From an uncultured Chlamydiales bacterium (lineage in GTDB: Bacteria; Chlamydiota; Chlamydiia; Chlamydiales; JAAKFR01): 64,000 nucleotides of DNA. Position numbers: made by a program. The stretch is from NCBI GenBank assembly GCA_963699155.1, contig OY969414.1, forward strand, positions 1,093,327 to 1,157,326. The letters run 5' to 3'. How positions within the stretch are numbered: the stretch's first letter is position 1; every line of letters starts with the position of its first letter. Shown here in pieces: positions 33,001 to 39,000 of this stretch.

Positions 33001-36000
33001 CTAGAGGTTGGTTTTTCATGCGCAAATAAAGATTGGCAATTAATGCCCCAATAAAAAAGGCTGGTAGATTGATGATCGGATTAAAGTAATAGAGCCAACG
33101 TAATAGTGAATCTTGATACCCAGCTTGTGAACTTGCCTTTTCACCAAAGCCAATGAGAGCCACATGGTCAATTTGCGCTTCATGTCGAGTGATAAATAAA
33201 ATACAACTTAAGACAAAGATTTGTGAGATGACTATCCATGCTACTTGCTTGAGGAGGCTTTTTTGTTTAACTAACCACCCCGCAAAAAGAAGATAAAAAA
33301 GATAAAAAAAAAGCTCGAGACTGATGGACCAAGAGACAGCTGCAGCCATATGATATTGGTAAATAAGGCTGTTGGTCGCGATGATCCCATAGATCCAATC
33401 CTGAGTTAGGGTCAGATAATAGGGCAATGCGAGTAAAAACCCCCATCTATCCCCAGCATGGCCACACGATCCTCGATGCAGATGAAAACCGATGAAAAAT
33501 TCTATGGCAAAAATGACAATATAGAGTGGATAAATACGAGTGAAACGGGCCACCAAGAAATTTTTCAAACCATTCGGCTTCTGATGAACCTGGTTGTAGT
33601 TATAATGGATCACAAAGCCGCTCAGCACGAAGAAGAGAGGCATCCCAATCCCTGATAAAGTCCCTAAAATGTTAGTCAGAGGACCAGTGACTCCTTGATC
33701 GCAAACCACCATCGCCGTGTAATGTGCGATCATCACCAAAAATGCCGCAAAAAAACGAAGGCCATCTAAAACCGGCAGTCTTTCAGGGGATAAAGTTGTT
33801 TTAGGATGCATAATTTTCGCTATTTTTTTTGTCTTTTACTATTTTATGAAGTTTAATTGGCTATATTGCTTAATAGCATGGTAAAAATAAAGAAGATGCG
33901 ACTCGATGGTAAGATGGGAGTGTGCAAAATCAGGGCATTCTTTGCCATCCTCTCAGCTTCAGAGTCGTTTCTCTTTGCCCATAACAGTCGGTCAACCAGA
34001 TCATTTAAATTTGAGTTAACTGGCACATAATGAACCCAAGGTTTTAGCTCATTATAGTGCCATTGAATTTCCGCTGAATCGGGTTTAATGATTAATGAGT
34101 TTAAAAAGAACTTCCAGCCTGAATGGGAGAAACTACAAGTGCTTCCATCAACTAAAATGTGATATTTATAGAATAGCTGTGCATCATAACTTAAAAAGTC
34201 GCCTTTATATTTTTGCAAGATTGCAGGATCTTCGATAAAAGTGGGTTCAATTATTGTGAATTTAGCATCAATCAACTCAGGATATTCTAATGAAAGTTGA
34301 CAGAGTTTGATTCTTGAAAATTGGTGCATATTATTTCTGCGAATGAAATAATTATTATCGAATCCTCTTTGGACAGATGATCCGCGCCACACTAGTGTTG
34401 ATTTCTTTTCATTCCAAGCTGATTCTACTTGGGTAATATCTCTATTTGGGAGCACTTGATATAACTCTTTTAATGCTTCAAAATCAGGAATTAAAATAAA
34501 ATTAGAATTTCGAGATTTTGCCATTACAAATATTGGAATTCCAATGTCTTCACCAAGTCTGTCATGCATCGTTATCATGAAACTTACATCAGGAAGAGTA
34601 GTTTTCGATGCCAAGAGCTTCAAAGCATCAATAAAAGCACCTCGCTCGATAAAGAAAGTTGTTAATGTCTGGCTTATATTCAAGGCAATGATCTATGAAA
34701 ATTTGATTATCTTTAATAGTAAACTTGACGAGACACCAATCATTTTTATATTTTTTGAAGACTTCATCCATTTTTCCTATTGATAAGGGAGCCCTCGAGT
34801 AAGGTACCAAATCGCTACGAATTTGCTTTTCCATCCAGGTGGGGCACGGCAAATCGAATCGGATTTCAGATGCAGAGGATCGCGTTGAAAGAGAAAAAAT
34901 AAGAAGTAATAGTAAAAGAAAAATCTTCTTCATAAATACTTATTCTCCCTGCTTAAGTAATTCTGAGAAATTTTCAAGTAGGGCAATAATCTCTCGATCA
35001 CTTTTTCCTTTTAGATCGAGTTTTTTGAGAGAAGCGAGAATTGAAGAGGGGAAGGCATTGGGGTAGATCCACCAATCCTCAAAGGAGGAAACGTCTTCAC
35101 AAAGTAGATAATAACCTAATGAAGAAAGAATTTTACGTTCGCTGTTTTTAAACTTATCACCATATCGATAGCCATCATGTTCGATGGTAATAATTTTAAA
35201 GATATAGGCATCGAAGGGTATTTTGTTTAAAACAACATCATAAAGGTCATCAATATCTAAAGAAAGATAGTCAATAACTCGCGGAAAAGGTTTTAGAATT
35301 TTGTGATAATCACATGAAGTGGCATCTTCAATCAGTAAGGGATTTTTGCGGCAAGAAACCCATCTTTCGTAAAAAGCAGCAGAAATATCGATGCTAACGC
35401 CTTTCCAGTCATGGTAATTTTCAAAAAAATAACTGTTGTTAATTTCTTTAGGATCAGCTGCTCCAATTTCAAGATAATAGCCTTGATCTGTTTTACCAAG
35501 GAGTCGATAGAGCATTAAATAAACAAATTTATCTTGTGAAGCTTGCGAATGGAATAATCCCTCTAGTTCGGATAAGTTTTTTGATTGAAGTTCACCTTCG
35601 AAGCCAAAGCTCAGGAAGGGAGTACATATGAATAAACAGATCAGAATTTTTGTCAGCATTCTGAGCACTCCTTTAATAAGAAATATATTGGCGGGGAAAT
35701 TAGAGGGTGGAATCCTTTTTGTCAAAGGAAAAAATTTGCTCTGCCCATGTAGATCAACGAAGACCGATTTCTATCAGTGAATTAGAAGCTTTCTTTAGTA
35801 AAAACTGTAAGGAATTGTGGTTAGTCAAATTTGTTATAATCGATAATAAATCCTTAACTTTCTGATGGTGGATTATGTTCCTGTAGAAGTTAATTTAGAT
35901 AACTTGATTGATGCCATTTTAGTATTAAATAACAATGATAATCTGGCCAGAGCAATCGCTATTCGCTTCCTCCAATGATGGTAAGTATTCGATCATCCTC

Positions 36001-39000
36001 TTCCATATTATAGAATTCGTTGTTCATCTGGTATTCGCGCTCGGGCGGCCGGCCGAAATAGATGACTCTCGGGATTTTGACGTTGCGGAAGAACCATTCG
36101 TCGCGGAAGCTATAGTGGTTGATGCGAAGGAGCGCGTCGTTGACGGGGTAGGTATTGGCTGTGGCCCAGATTTCTTGATGGGAATTGAAGGGGTAGGGGT
36201 TACCTGAACCATCGGAAAAGGGGACAAGACCTGGGATTAAATGTGGATTGGGGACGTAAATGGTACTGAGATATTCGGGTTGAACGATCATTTTACCGAT
36301 TTTGTTGTCGCAGAAGTCGTGCTGGGAGCAGCGGGTGAGGTGGGGAAGGATGAGGCAGGGGGGTGGAAGCGAGATGAAGCTGGTACCGAAGAAGCGCCAG
36401 TTGACAAAGATCAACGGTTTGTAGGCATATTCTTCTTCCAGCGTTTCGGTCAAAGTCTCATATTTCATTGGGACAATAAATTCATCTGTATCGAGGAAAC
36501 TCAGCCATTTTGTTACCCCTTTGCAGCTCTTGAGCGCGTGTGTGTAGGCACCATTTTGTGTCACACCCCATTCGGCAAGAGTGGGCCATTTGACATAGTC
36601 GACAATGCCCTCACGGATATATGGTGCGAGGATTTCATGTGTTTCCTCACCTTCATTATTGTCATAGATATAAAAATGATCGGCGCCGATTAAACGGTGA
36701 TAATCAATCCACTCAGCGATATAGGGATGATCATCTTTGGTTATGGCAGCGATGGAAATATTATGAATGTATTTGACTTGTCCGTAGCAGCTGAAAGTCG
36801 CCAGCATTAACAATAGATAGAAAAGAGATTTCAAGGGTTACCTCAGTAGTAATGGATTTACCTATGCCTCACGAATCGAAGATCTTCTCTTTTTTGCTTT
36901 CTACTGGGGTTTCAAAACCAAATGGCCTACCACCTTTCGCTACAATACGTGCGAGAAACTCAAGGTAGGCACGCTGCGTTGTTGCGATTTGGGTAACCTC
37001 TTTTTTGATTTCGTTTAACATTCTCGCACGCTCTTTTCTTTTTTTTAACCTTCTTTTAATTGCACTTAGCAACTTCATAATTTTCCCTTTTTCTCAAAAC
37101 TATTTTGTTTGGATCGGTGGATAACCTAAAGATAAATTCCTAGACTCCCAGAATTCTTTAAATGCGGCTATATGCATTTCTTTGAACTCATCCTTCCATC
37201 TACCAACCTTTTTCTTGACAGGGTTATATGACCCGCATTTTCCAAATGTTTTTTCAACAGCAATTTTTATCTCATCTACAGATCGCTGATATCCAAAAAA
37301 ACTACAGATATCTGAGAATAACTCAAATCGATCATTATCACATAAATTCCCACCTGCTTCTTGTCCAATAAAATCTTCAAATTTTAGTATTCGAGTAGAG
37401 TGAGGTTTTTCTTTTAAAAGTAGATCCATGAGATCTAAAGAGTATCTAGTATTAGTCATCAGGCCCGAAGCCATACGTTCTGATTTTATTACTTTTAAAA
37501 GCTGTTCGTCATAGGAATCACATAAAAATTCCATGGAATTGATTAGTGCAATATTATGATGCCCATGGGGACTTTCAACTATAGACTGTGCATTTTTTTT
37601 TATCCAAAAGGCAGCCGAAGAGATGCAATCTTTTAAATCTCTTCTTACTATAATAGTTTTTCCAACAAATTGTTCTGGCTTGCGCAGTCTCCATGGATAT
37701 AATTGAATCCAATAAGATCGCGTCAGCTCTGTATCTAATGTAAAATGATCAATAGCCACTTCCATATTCAGCATCTGCATGAGGAGATGTAAATACTGAG
37801 TACCAGATTTAGGAAATGTGACGACGGCATTATCAAGTAAGGGTTTTTCTTGCAGTATTTCTAAGTTCATAGGTAGTTATAGTTTTTGAAGAAGACTTTC
37901 AAGATACCCCGCGTTGCTTAAATAGTCGAGAATCAATTCTAGGCTTTCCTCGAGAGAGTGGCTGTCTGTGTCGATGGTGATTTCGGGATTTTCTGGAATT
38001 TCGTAGGGGTCGTTGATGCCTGTAAAACTGGGGAGCGTTCCAGAGCGCACTTTGGCATAGAGACCTTTGACATCTCGCTGTTCACAGATCTTTAGGGGAG
38101 TGGATACGTAAATTTCGATATAACCTCCTACTTGGGAGATAAGCCGCCGATTTTCATTTCTGGCAGTCCTGTAGGGGGCAATTGCAGCGCAGAGAGCGAT
38201 CCCACCTACTCTGGTGATTTCTGAGGCAACAAAACCGATGCGGCGGACATTTAAGTCACGATGGGCTTTTGAGAAACCCAATTCTGAGCTCAAGAATTGG
38301 CGCACGACATCTCCATCTAGAAGGGAGATTTTATGGAGCCCCATACTCATCAATTTATCTCTGAGAGCTTCTGCAAGCGTCGATTTACCTGCTCCCGAAA
38401 GCCCAGTAAAAAATAAGGTGAATCCCATCTTCTAATCTCCAAAAAGAGAGAATTTATAAAGCGTGTTTATTTTTATTGATAGGCTAAACTTTCTCGATCG
38501 GCTGGAACTGCTGTGAGGAGGGGTCGTAAGCAAACATTTCGGCGGTGGCAATTTTGAAGTACCAGCCATGGAGGCGGAGAGTGCCAGCTTTTAACCGTTT
38601 GGCAACGGCAGGATAGGTGTGGAGGTTTTCCAATGCAAAGAGCACATTTTCCTCGGCGGCTGCATGTAGCTTTTCCTGGTCACTCAGATGGGAATAGTTC
38701 CGTTCTATCAGTTTTTTCACAGGGGAAGCGACGTTGAGCCACTCCTGAAGATGGGGCATGCCGGCCTTTCGAGGCGGAGGTTGAAGAAGAGCTGCCATCG
38801 CACCACACTGAGAATGGCCACAGACAACCAGATCACTGACGCCAAGCGTTTCGACAGCGAATTCAATAGCCGCAGCAGTTGAGTTGGTACTTCCCTTTAC
38901 ATTGGAGGGGGGAACAATATTACCTACGTTTTTGACTACAAAGAGATCTCCCGGCTGGCTCTGCGTGATCAATTCCGCTAAGACACGCGAATCGGAGCAG

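What the first reader, a model, noticed from the sequence alone, without database searches (positions are those of the whole stretch)
33853..37870. Block of eukaryote-type glycosylation enzymes (GT90/CAP10, GT92, sulfotransferase, FkbM-like) with signal/anchor N-termini
GT90 (CAP10/POGLUT-type) and GT92 are families best known from eukaryotic secretory-pathway glycosylation. Here both, together with the FkbM-like protein, start with short hydrophobic signal or anchor sequences:
- GT90: MKKIFLLLLLLIFSLSTRSSA
- GT92: MKSLFYLLLMLATFSCYG
- FkbM-like: MLTKILICLFICTPFLSFG

This layout resembles type II Golgi enzymes. Nucleotide-sugar-dependent transferases exported to a bacterial periplasm would lack donors. 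That leaves two options. The N-termini may be cytoplasm-facing anchors, or the proteins may act outside the bacterium, for example in a host compartment if the organism is an intracellular symbiont. The block is visibly AT-rich.
Basis: partly seen in the sequence, partly recalled or inferred. Interest (0 to 1): 0.6.

Follow-up and report, generated by a model that had tools for sequence, protein, structure and literature searches.

The report
Signal-peptide glycan enzymes in a chlamydia
A partly decayed accessory gene block in an obligate intracellular chlamydia-like bacterium encodes sugar-adding and methylating enzymes with export signals; hundreds of relatives across environmental chlamydiae share this trait, which suggests they run normally cytoplasmic, Golgi-like glycan chemistry outside the cytoplasm.

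Summary
The four family calls hold. GT90 and GT92 match Pfam directly. The "FkbM-like" and sulfotransferase genes are supported only through relatives, motifs and, for FkbM-like, a predicted fold. The three signal-like N-termini are real, sit behind Shine-Dalgarno sites, and are conserved in about 90% of each family.

Three points qualify the observation:
- The GT90 gene carries two 1-nt frameshifts. A second, internally deleted GT90 relic lies on the opposite strand.
- The sulfotransferase has no signal peptide, although most chlamydial relatives do.
- Only GT90, FkbM-like and the sulfotransferase are AT-rich (35% GC against 47.5% for the genome). GT92 is at 46.6%.

The genome is a 2.4-Mb member of Chlamydiota with two ATP/ADP translocases. 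The block lies in a species-specific variable region that is absent from the congener.

"Eukaryote-type" is well founded only for GT90: the family profile matches human POGLUT2 at E=9e-58 over its full length. Even so, the window's copy nests inside a chlamydial clade.

Each family occurs in 23-39% of the chlamydial genomes sampled, often in several copies. The hydrophobic regions have a median of 12-13 residues, too short for membrane anchors.

Best reading: these are Sec-exported glycan-tailoring enzymes that use host-derived donors. Topology and activity are untested.

The parts
34628..34933 (-). GT90, 5' piece. It holds the signal-like N-terminus MKKIFLLLLLLIFSLSTRSSA and the N-terminal subdomain (PCPTWMEKQIRSDL...). 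It ends in a stop after the first frameshift.
   Evidence: tblastn of intact homologs covers 34936-34634.
33853..34683 (-). GT90 catalytic core, in a second reading frame. The first frameshift lies in a T-run near 34640. The second lies near 33931-33936, just after ...EAERMAKNA.
   Evidence: PF05686 at 6.1e-20. 58-60% identity to P0002. All 23 invariant family columns are retained.
33842..33931 (-). GT90 C-terminal ~30 codons (DFAHSHLTIESHLLYFYHAIKQYSQLNFIK), back in the first frame.
   Evidence: Matches the C-termini of homologs.
34940..35662 (-). Intact FkbM-like protein with a class I methyltransferase fold and the signal-like N-terminus MLTKILICLFICTPFLSFG. It belongs to a divergent subgroup: EIGAxxP replaces the canonical glycine-rich loop, and the ~50-aa insert and the EGxE motif are absent.
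35755..35960 (+). Relic of a second GT90 gene on the opposite strand. Two collinear fragments correspond to residues ~84-115 and ~337-367 of an intact homolog, with about 220 codons deleted between them.
   Evidence: E=2e-5 and 1.6e-4 in the local search.
35959..36834 (-). Intact GT92 glycosyltransferase. The TTG start lies behind a GAGG Shine-Dalgarno site. Signal-like N-terminus MKSLFYLLLMLATFSCYG. GT-A fold with DxD (D115-T-D117-E118).
   Evidence: PF01697 at 6.8e-25. AlphaFold pLDDT 95.3. Best PDB structural match is GalS1. Invariant columns. Start site.
36869..37078 (-). 69-aa ORF homologous to the N-terminal ~85 residues of the methyltransferase at 30785-31933.
   Evidence: BLASTP 36% identity, E=2e-14. 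No Pfam hit.
37100..37870 (-). Sulfotransfer_1-type sulfotransferase (presumed PAPS-dependent) without a signal peptide. It starts 6 nt after the cysC stop.
37877..38428 (-). APS kinase CysC, the supplier of PAPS. CysD is encoded elsewhere in the genome.
   Evidence: PF01583 at 1.8e-57. CysD at 400 bits.
32525..33811 (-). Polytopic Acyl_transf_3 acyltransferase immediately downstream of GT90.
   Evidence: PF01757 at 6.7e-29.

Best explanation
The block is a mosaic, partly decaying accessory segment at the end of a surface-glycan biosynthesis region (about 20.8-38.4 kb of the window). The genome is that of an obligate intracellular member of Chlamydiota.

GT92, FkbM-like and the now-broken GT90 belong to large families that are multi-copy and patchily distributed across Chlamydiota. 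Almost every member of these families starts with a short Sec-type signal peptide.

**Most likely mechanism**
1. The proteins are exported by Sec and cleaved by signal peptidase I.
2. They act in the periplasm, at the cell surface, or in the inclusion lumen after further secretion.
3. There they add hexose or pentose residues and methyl groups to an envelope glycan or glycoprotein.
4. They use activated donors (UDP-sugars, SAM) that reach this compartment from the host.

Sulfation in this genome is cytoplasmic: CysDN and CysC make PAPS, and the sulfotransferase has no signal.

**Shown**
- Family membership.
- Conservation of the signal-like N-termini.
- Distribution across the phylum.
- The frameshifts and the relic.
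- The island's absence from the congener.
- The genomic markers of an intracellular lifestyle.

**Inferred**
- Export and cleavage.
- The site of action.
- Donors and acceptors.
For: **Families**
-.

**Signal features**
- Median hydrophobic region is 12-13 residues and begins at residue 4-6.
- The N-terminal stretch before it has 1-2 K/R and no D/E.
- Only 5-16% of hydrophobic regions reach 18 residues.
- An internal comparison gives a 19-residue anchor in the membrane-fusion protein at 41250 and a 16-residue stretch (which includes the lipobox) in the lipoprotein signal at 42181.
- In GT92 the -1 position is A/G/S in 77% of sequences and -3 is L/A/I, directly before a conserved Y-[EQK]-Y-x-[LIV]-S strand.
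- In chlamydial-type GT90, 36 of 43 have a hydrophobic stretch of at least 11 residues before the WM..QI..DL motif. In cytoplasmic-looking proteobacterial GT90-likes the count is 0 of 19.
- Sulfotransferase relatives also carry signals ahead of PKSGTH.

**Distribution across the phylum**

| Family | Genomes with a hit |
|---|---|
| GT90 | 79 of 251 (tandem arrays of up to 6) |
| GT92 | 97 of 250 (0 of 14 control genomes) |
| FkbM-like | 68 of 300 |
| Sulfotransferase-like | 63 of 250 |

- More than 150 GT90 clusters at 50% identity score above 289 bits.

**Lifestyle and context**
- Two TLC nucleotide translocases score 760 and 622 bits.
- An LRR-NEL gene lies next door.
- Neighbouring genes include GT2, a split transketolase, the CDP-glucose pathway and Acyl_transf_3.

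**Precedent for a donor outside the bacterium**
- UDP-glucose is imported into the C. trachomatis inclusion by host SLC35D2 and used there by secreted GlgA (PMC4829429).

**Functional coupling of GT90 with methylation**
- GT90 and an FkbM-like gene are adjacent in the window, in L008 and in L092.
- P0109 is a GT90-methyltransferase fusion.
Against: - No trained signal-peptide or topology predictor was available. The call rests on heuristics and on conservation.
- No periplasmic Leloir-type transferase has been shown experimentally in bacteria, to my knowledge.
- The genome has no clear nucleotide-sugar transporter: PF04142 scores only 18.5 bits, below its cut-off.
- In this genome GT90 is frameshifted twice and the sulfotransferase lacks a signal, so the local block may be only partly functional.
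- Synteny of the four genes is not conserved elsewhere, so they may not act on one common substrate.
Confidence: 0.55

Rival explanations
1. These are ordinary cytoplasmic-face glycan or LPS transferases. The short hydrophobic N-termini are uncleaved membrane tethers or in-plane helices that hold the catalytic domains on the cytoplasmic side, where nucleotide sugars and SAM are available.
For: - Leloir-type transferases and SAM methyltransferases normally work in the cytoplasm.
- The block sits in a conventional glycan biosynthesis region.
- A minority of family members have hydrophobic stretches of at least 18 residues (5-16%).
Against: - Positive charges precede the hydrophobic segment and do not follow it.
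- The hydrophobic regions are too short to span a membrane.
- Small residues at -1 and -3 are conserved.
- Non-chlamydial homologs lack the segment altogether: proteobacterial GT90-likes, and the archaeal and giant-virus GT92. It is therefore an added targeting feature and not part of the fold.
Confidence: 0.2
2. These are host-directed secreted enzymes. After Sec export and type II or vesicle release, they modify host or inclusion-membrane glycoproteins and not bacterial glycans. For example, POGLUT-like O-glucosylation of EGF-type repeats.
For: - The GT90 family profile aligns over its full length with human POGLUT2 (E=9.4e-58) and POGLUT1 (2.4e-38), including the N-terminal subdomain.
- An effector-type LRR-NEL gene is adjacent.
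- There is a precedent for chlamydial enzymes working in the inclusion lumen.
Against: - No acceptor is known.
- The genomic context is bacterial glycan synthesis and acylation.
- GT90 is broken here.
- Multi-copy tandem arrays fit diversification of a surface glycan at least as well.
Confidence: 0.12
3. The block is largely non-functional debris of horizontally acquired genes, and no coherent pathway operates here.
For: - Two frameshifts in GT90, plus a deleted GT90 relic.
- Mosaic GC content: 33-35% against 47%.
- The block is absent from the same-genus genome.
- There is a stray 69-aa gene fragment.
Against: - GT92, FkbM-like, the sulfotransferase, CysC and the acyltransferase are intact, with conserved catalytic columns and good start sites.
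- Each of GT90's three pieces is free of stops in its own frame. The breaks are therefore recent, or they are assembly errors.
Confidence: 0.1

Closest known systems
Human POGLUT2/KDELC1 (PDB 9w47), POGLUT1 (5l0r) and Drosophila Rumi (5f84): ER-lumenal GT90 protein O-glucosyl/xylosyltransferases
   Same: - The alignment is full-length, including the N-terminal subdomain: 199, 135 and 114 bits.
- The Asp of the HD motif, which aligns with the 'RD' position in POGLUT1, is retained.
- Both groups have an N-terminal signal sequence that targets a non-cytoplasmic compartment.
   Different: - The chlamydial proteins are about 360 aa, with no filamin domain and no KDEL.
- They form their own clade or clades. 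Monophyly is not rejected (p-AU 0.91).
- The acceptor is unknown.
- The window's copy is frameshifted.
GT92 beta-1,4-galactosyltransferases (poplar GalS1, PDB 8d3t; C. elegans GALT-1)
   Same: - PF01697 membership.
- GT-A fold with DxD.
- GalS1 is the best match by both sequence profile (E=2.3e-9) and structure (TM 0.55).
   Different: - Only 14-15% identity.
- The protein is about 290 aa, with no stem and no CBM-like domain.
- It has a cleavable-type signal in place of a type II anchor.
- Donor and acceptor are unknown.
Chlamydia trachomatis luminal glycogen pathway (GlgA and others secreted; host SLC35D2 imports UDP-glucose into the inclusion; PMC4829429)
   Same: A nucleotide-sugar-dependent transferase of a chlamydia works outside the bacterial cytoplasm on a host-supplied donor.
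   Different: - Those enzymes leave by type III secretion and have no Sec signal.
- They are housekeeping glycogen enzymes, not GT90, GT92 or FkbM families.
Bacterial periplasmic glycan modification (GtrA/GtrB/GtrC, ArnT, OafA-type Acyl_transf_3)
   Same: - Extracytoplasmic tailoring of envelope glycans.
- GT2 and Acyl_transf_3 genes lie in the same region of the window.
   Different: Those systems solve the donor problem with lipid-linked sugars and GT-C enzymes, or by transmembrane acyl relay. They do not use soluble Leloir-type enzymes.
FkbM-family methyltransferases (PF05050)
   Same: - Class I methyltransferase fold.
- An ortholog and several paralogs hit PF05050.
   Different: - The window protein itself has no Pfam hit.
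- It has an altered SAM-loop motif (EIGAxxP).
- It lacks the ~50-aa insert and the DxEGxE motif of canonical members.
- It carries a signal peptide.

Membership tests
GT90 (PF05686; POGLUT/CAP10) | Pfam domain above the gathering score | tested here: met
   71.9 bits against a cut-off of 24. The whole-genome scan gives 74.5 bits.
GT90 (PF05686; POGLUT/CAP10) | Full-length similarity to characterised POGLUT enzymes, including the N-terminal subdomain | tested here: met
   Family profile against POGLUT2: E=9.4e-58, profile positions 35-356 of 357. The window's N-terminal piece aligns to homologs.
GT90 (PF05686; POGLUT/CAP10) | One intact open reading frame | tested here: not met
   Two 1-nt frameshifts split the gene into three frame segments.
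GT90 (PF05686; POGLUT/CAP10) | UDP-Glc or UDP-Xyl transfer to a defined acceptor | not testable with these tools
   Needs an enzyme assay of an intact homolog.
GT92 (PF01697) | Pfam domain above the gathering score | tested here: met
   88.5 bits against a cut-off of 23.
GT92 (PF01697) | GT-A fold with a DxD metal-binding motif | tested here: met
   AlphaFold pLDDT 95.3. The top PDB matches are GalS1 and then SpsA. D115, D117 and E118 are invariant across 61 sequences.
GT92 (PF01697) | Galactosyltransferase activity | not testable with these tools
   No assay was possible.
FkbM methyltransferase (PF05050) | Direct Pfam hit | tested here: not met
   No hit even at E<=10.
FkbM methyltransferase (PF05050) | Homology through relatives, and a class I SAM-methyltransferase fold | tested here: met
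   - Ortholog L095 (49% identity) hits PF05050 at 1.4e-6.
- Paralogs score between 1e-15 and 2.6e-50.
- The model has pLDDT 91.3, and all top Foldseek hits are SAM methyltransferases.
FkbM methyltransferase (PF05050) | Canonical SAM-binding and DxEGxE motifs | tested here: inconclusive
   The motif I region reads EIGAxxP. The EG.E motif is replaced by D..YD, and the insert is missing.
Sulfotransfer_1 (PF00685) | Pfam domain above the gathering score | tested here: not met
   17.9 bits against a cut-off of 22 for the window protein. 9 of 10 chlamydial relatives pass.
Sulfotransfer_1 (PF00685) | 5'-PSB loop (PKSGT) and 3'-PB motif (R/KxxxGxWKxxF) | tested here: met
   FPKSGTQY and KKKVGRWKDEF are present in the sequence and conserved in relatives. 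The motif definitions come from my general knowledge of PAPS sulfotransferases.
Sec type I signal peptide | Basic N-terminal stretch, a hydrophobic region of about 7-16 residues, and small residues at -3 and -1 | tested here: met
   Heuristic only. There was no trained predictor and no cleavage data.
Type II Golgi-enzyme layout | Uncleaved transmembrane anchor of at least ~18 residues, followed by a stem region | tested here: not met
   The median hydrophobic region is 12-13 residues. In the model, GT92's N-terminal helix spans residues 2-17 and its first strand starts at residue 24.

The most novel reading that the evidence does not exclude
Environmental Chlamydiota as a group run a Golgi-like glycan-tailoring system outside the cytoplasm. 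Leloir-type glycosyltransferases (GT90, GT92), SAM methyltransferases and PAPS sulfotransferases all carry Sec signals. They work in the periplasm or the inclusion lumen on activated donors taken from the host. The GT90 branch shares direct ancestry with eukaryotic ER POGLUT enzymes. The genes move between lineages, in part on phages.
Probability: 0.35. Interest if true: 0.85.

Novelty: new variant of a known kind. Interest (0 to 1): 0.55.

Why it matters
Bacterial glycan assembly textbooks place all nucleotide-sugar, SAM and PAPS chemistry in the cytoplasm. Four cofactor-dependent enzyme families that consistently carry export signals across a whole phylum of intracellular bacteria would mean one of two things. 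Either activated donors are available outside the bacterial cytoplasm, stolen from the host as UDP-glucose is in C. trachomatis, or an unknown topology rule applies.

It would also point to candidates for an uncharacterised glycocalyx or inclusion-lumen glycan of environmental chlamydiae. And it would supply a bacterial sister group for studying the origin of POGLUT-type enzymes.

This particular locus is a small and partly decayed example. Its value lies mainly in documenting how these genes turn over.

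Tried and rejected
- **Read-level check of the frameshifts.** Clustering of breaks in an accessory low-GC gene, plus the relic, favours real decay.
- **Phylogeny with broad eukaryotic sampling.**
  - The exhaustive profile search returned only chlamydial-type sequences in its top 150.
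  - The mixed-profile search added only mammalian POGLUT1.
  - A quick tree placed the POGLUT clade inside chlamydial diversity. The AU test did not reject chlamydial monophyly, and the constrained tree was in fact better. I do not claim a direction of transfer.
- **Conserved operon.** The four genes are not syntenic in other genomes. Only the GT90 and FkbM-like adjacency recurs.
- **Bacterial nucleotide-sugar transporter.** PF04142 gave only a sub-threshold hit.
- **Sat-type ATP sulfurylase.** Absent, but CysD is present. PAPS synthesis is therefore plausible and host APS need not be invoked.
- **Direct PDB sequence hits.** None for GT92 as a single sequence, the sulfotransferase or the FkbM-like profile.
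- **Promoter, terminator and repeat scans.** Nothing above chance, and no flanking repeats or IS elements.
- **Programmed frameshifting in GT90.** Rejected. There are two shifts in opposite directions, and intact homologs have neither.
- **Literature.** Full-text searches found no report of GT90, GT92 or sulfotransferases with signal peptides in Chlamydiae.

Full report
**What is at the coordinates**

On the minus strand between 33853 and 37870 the ORF scan shows, from right to left:

| Coordinates | Length | Identity |
|---|---|---|
| 37870-37100 | 256 aa | sulfotransferase |
| 37078-36869 | 69 aa | small ORF |
| 36834-35959 | 291 aa | GT92 |
| 35725/35662-34940 | 261/240 aa | "FkbM-like" |
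| 34933-34628 and 34683-33853 | 101 and 276 aa | two overlapping ORFs that together make GT90 |

Pfam confirms GT90 (PF05686, 6.1e-20) and GT92 (PF01697, 6.8e-25). It gives only a sub-threshold Sulfotransfer_1 hit (17.9 against 22 bits). It gives nothing for the FkbM-like protein, even at E<=10. NCBIfam is silent on all four.

**Rescuing the two weak family calls**

*FkbM-like.* A six-frame search of 300 genomes of the phylum found orthologs at 50-66% identity, plus many weaker paralogs.
- One ortholog hits PF05050 (FkbM) at 1.4e-6. Paralogs score from 1e-15 to 2.6e-50.
- An AlphaFold model built on 18 sequences (pLDDT 91.3) matches only class I SAM-methyltransferase structures.
- The window subgroup is divergent. 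Its motif I reads EIGAxxP, and it lacks both the insert and the EGxE motif of canonical members.

*Sulfotransferase.* The protein carries the PKSGT loop and a KKKVGRWKDEF motif. Nine of ten chlamydial relatives pass PF00685. It sits 6 nt downstream of an APS kinase gene (PF01583, 1.8e-57). CysD is encoded elsewhere in the genome. No Sat-type sulfurylase is present.

**GT90 is broken**

Translating the three frames and aligning intact homologs gives three segments:
- 34936-34634, holding the signal peptide and the N-terminal subdomain;
- 34686-33934, holding the core in a different frame;
- 33931-33842, holding the last ~30 residues, back in the first frame.

The first shift lies in a T-run near 34640. 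The second lies just after ...MAKNA. Each segment is free of stops in its own frame, and all 23 invariant family columns are retained. The damage is therefore recent, or it reflects assembly indels.

Between the FkbM-like and GT92 genes, on the plus strand (35755-35850 and 35868-35960), lie two collinear fragments of another GT90. About 220 codons are deleted between them. This relic cannot be a sequencing artefact, and it shows real gene decay at this spot.

**The N-termini**

Each start is preceded by a GGAG or GAGG motif at 5-9 nt. The gene caller's shorter GT92 (P0020, ATG nine codons downstream) is therefore probably wrong, because homologs carry the hydrophobic stretch.

Measured across homologs:
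- A hydrophobic stretch of at least 8 residues precedes the catalytic domain in 91% of GT92, 89% of GT90 and 97% of FkbM-like sequences.
- The median length is 12-13 residues, starting at residue 4-6.
- One or two K/R residues and no acidic residues come before it.
- Only 5-16% reach 18 residues.
- For comparison, the membrane-fusion protein at 41250 in this window has a 19-residue anchor.

In GT92, A/G/S sits at -1 in 77% of sequences and L/A/I at -3, directly before the conserved Y-x-Y-x-[LIV]-S first strand. In the model, helix 2-17 is followed by strand 24-32, which leaves no room for a stem.

The genome-wide background for the heuristic is 9.3% of ORFs. These are heuristics. No trained predictor was available.

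**The signal is specific to the lineage**

- Chlamydial-type GT90 proteins almost all have the signal. Proteobacterial GT90-like proteins have none, match only the C-terminal half, and carry other N-terminal domains.
- Archaeal, giant-virus and some other GT92 proteins start directly at the first strand.
- Relatives of the sulfotransferase in other chlamydiae also carry signals ahead of PKSGTH. The window's copy does not.

**Organism and distribution**

The genome is one 2,399,326-bp contig with 47.5% GC. It has two full-length ATP/ADP translocases. An IpaH/SspH-like LRR-NEL gene lies next to the block. The named relatives of its GT90 are overwhelmingly Chlamydiota metagenome-assembled genomes: Simkaniaceae, Rhabdochlamydiaceae and Parachlamydiales.

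| Family | Genomes in the phylum | Genera | Other |
|---|---|---|---|
| GT90 | 79 of 251 | 59 of 143 | tandem arrays of up to six |
| GT92 | 97 of 250 | 66 of 143 | 0 of 14 control genomes |
| FkbM-like | 68 of 300 | 45 of 165 | - |
| Sulfotransferase-like | 63 of 250 | 48 of 143 | - |

The same-genus genome lacks all four. At DNA level it shares only the efflux genes from 41240 onward and a methyltransferase fragment. The block therefore lies in a species-specific variable region.

GC content is mosaic:
- GT90, FkbM-like and the sulfotransferase: 35%;
- the relic: 33%;
- GT92 and cysC: 46.6%.

Synteny of the four genes is not conserved elsewhere. GT90 and FkbM-like adjacency does recur in L008 and L092, and a GT90-methyltransferase fusion exists (P0109).

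GT92 genes that carry the signal also occur on phage-sized viral contigs of about 35-40 kb. This is one plausible route for their patchy spread.

**How "eukaryote-type" is it?**

For GT90, strongly so. The chlamydial profile aligns over its full length with human POGLUT2 (E=9.4e-58), POGLUT1 (2.4e-38) and Rumi (8.5e-32).

A quick tree put the POGLUT clade inside chlamydial diversity, with the proteobacterial type outside it. The AU test did not reject chlamydial monophyly (p=0.91; the constrained tree was better). Eukaryotic sampling was limited to mammals, so the direction of transfer is open. The window's copy sits in a fully chlamydial clade with 100% support. It is not a recent eukaryotic import.

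The exhaustive search shows more than 150 clusters at 50% identity of the chlamydial type, and 13,332 GT90 relatives overall.

GT92 is only distantly related to plant GalS1: 40 bits by sequence, TM 0.55 by structure. FkbM-like and Sulfotransfer_1 are not specifically eukaryotic.

**Interpretation**

The context argues for envelope-glycan tailoring. Neighbouring genes include the CDP-glucose pathway, GT2, a split transketolase, an epimerase, a kinase, two sulfotransferases, APS kinase and a polytopic Acyl_transf_3.

The conserved Sec-type signals argue that GT92, FkbM-like and formerly GT90 act outside the cytoplasm. That is weaker for an energy-parasitic intracellular bacterium. Host nucleotides must cross its periplasm, and UDP-glucose is known to be imported into the C. 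trachomatis inclusion and used there by a secreted bacterial transferase (PMC4829429).

I therefore favour Sec export, with host-derived donors used in the periplasm or the inclusion lumen (confidence about 0.55). The alternatives are:
- cytoplasm-facing tethers (about 0.2);
- host-directed modification (about 0.12);
- non-functional debris (about 0.1).

Export, cleavage, donors and acceptors are all inferred.

**Relation to earlier notes of this scan**

Other agents reported exported glycan-enzyme islands in other chlamydial genomes, and a phage-borne exported GT92. My phylum-wide tallies and viral scan reach the same pattern independently. Those notes are not used as evidence here.

Full-text searches of the literature found no published description.

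Noticed in passing
window 35755-35960 (+): An internally deleted relic of a second GT90 gene lies on the opposite strand. The FkbM-like gene is therefore flanked by two GT90 copies, one frameshifted and one a relic, in opposite orientation.
   Followed up: yes
window 39146-40810 (-): An LRR plus NEL (IpaH/SspH/SlrP-like E3 ligase) effector-type gene lies two genes upstream of the block. NCBIfam scores reach 161 bits. Another first-stage note says its 5' end is frameshifted; I did not check this.
   Followed up: no
window 31930-32484 (-): A 184-aa, low-GC (38%) protein has a weak hit to the fungal HET (heterokaryon incompatibility) domain (E=9.6e-4, below the cut-off). It sits between the methyltransferase and the acyltransferase.
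   Followed up: no
window 36869-37078 (-) and 30785-31040 (+): The 69-aa ORF upstream of GT92 is homologous (36% identity, E=2e-14) to the N-terminal ~85 residues of the Methyltransf_24 protein at 30785-31933. It is either a free-standing copy of that N-terminal module or a gene fragment.
   Followed up: partly
L105-L128 (relatives of the sulfotransferase in other chlamydial genomes): Nearly all chlamydial Sulfotransfer_1 relatives carry a signal-like N-terminus directly before the PKSGTH PAPS-binding loop. This is a fourth cofactor-dependent family with export signals. The window's copy is an exception.
   Followed up: partly
L131-L143 (IMG/VR contigs of ~35-40 kb): Phage-sized viral contigs encode GT92 proteins with the same signal-like N-terminus. 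Giant-virus MAG contigs (L175, L184, L206, L209) encode GT92 without it. GT90-like C-terminal domains also occur on viral and giant-virus contigs (L210-L229).
   Followed up: partly
P0109 (571 aa, metagenome/NCBI); G207:C8:2088-17644: P0109 is a GT90 fused to SAM-methyltransferase domains. Separately, one chlamydial genome carries six GT90 genes within about 15 kb.
   Followed up: no
genome C1:902849-904321 and 82347-83807; C1:525545-526426: The genome has two full-length TLC-type nucleotide translocases and a CysD gene. It has no Sat-type ATP sulfurylase.
   Followed up: partly
window 41240-45481 compared with G147: The MacAB/OMF-like efflux operon immediately right of the variable region is conserved at 67-71% DNA identity in the same-genus genome. 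This marks the right-hand boundary of the species-specific region at about 41.2 kb.
   Followed up: partly
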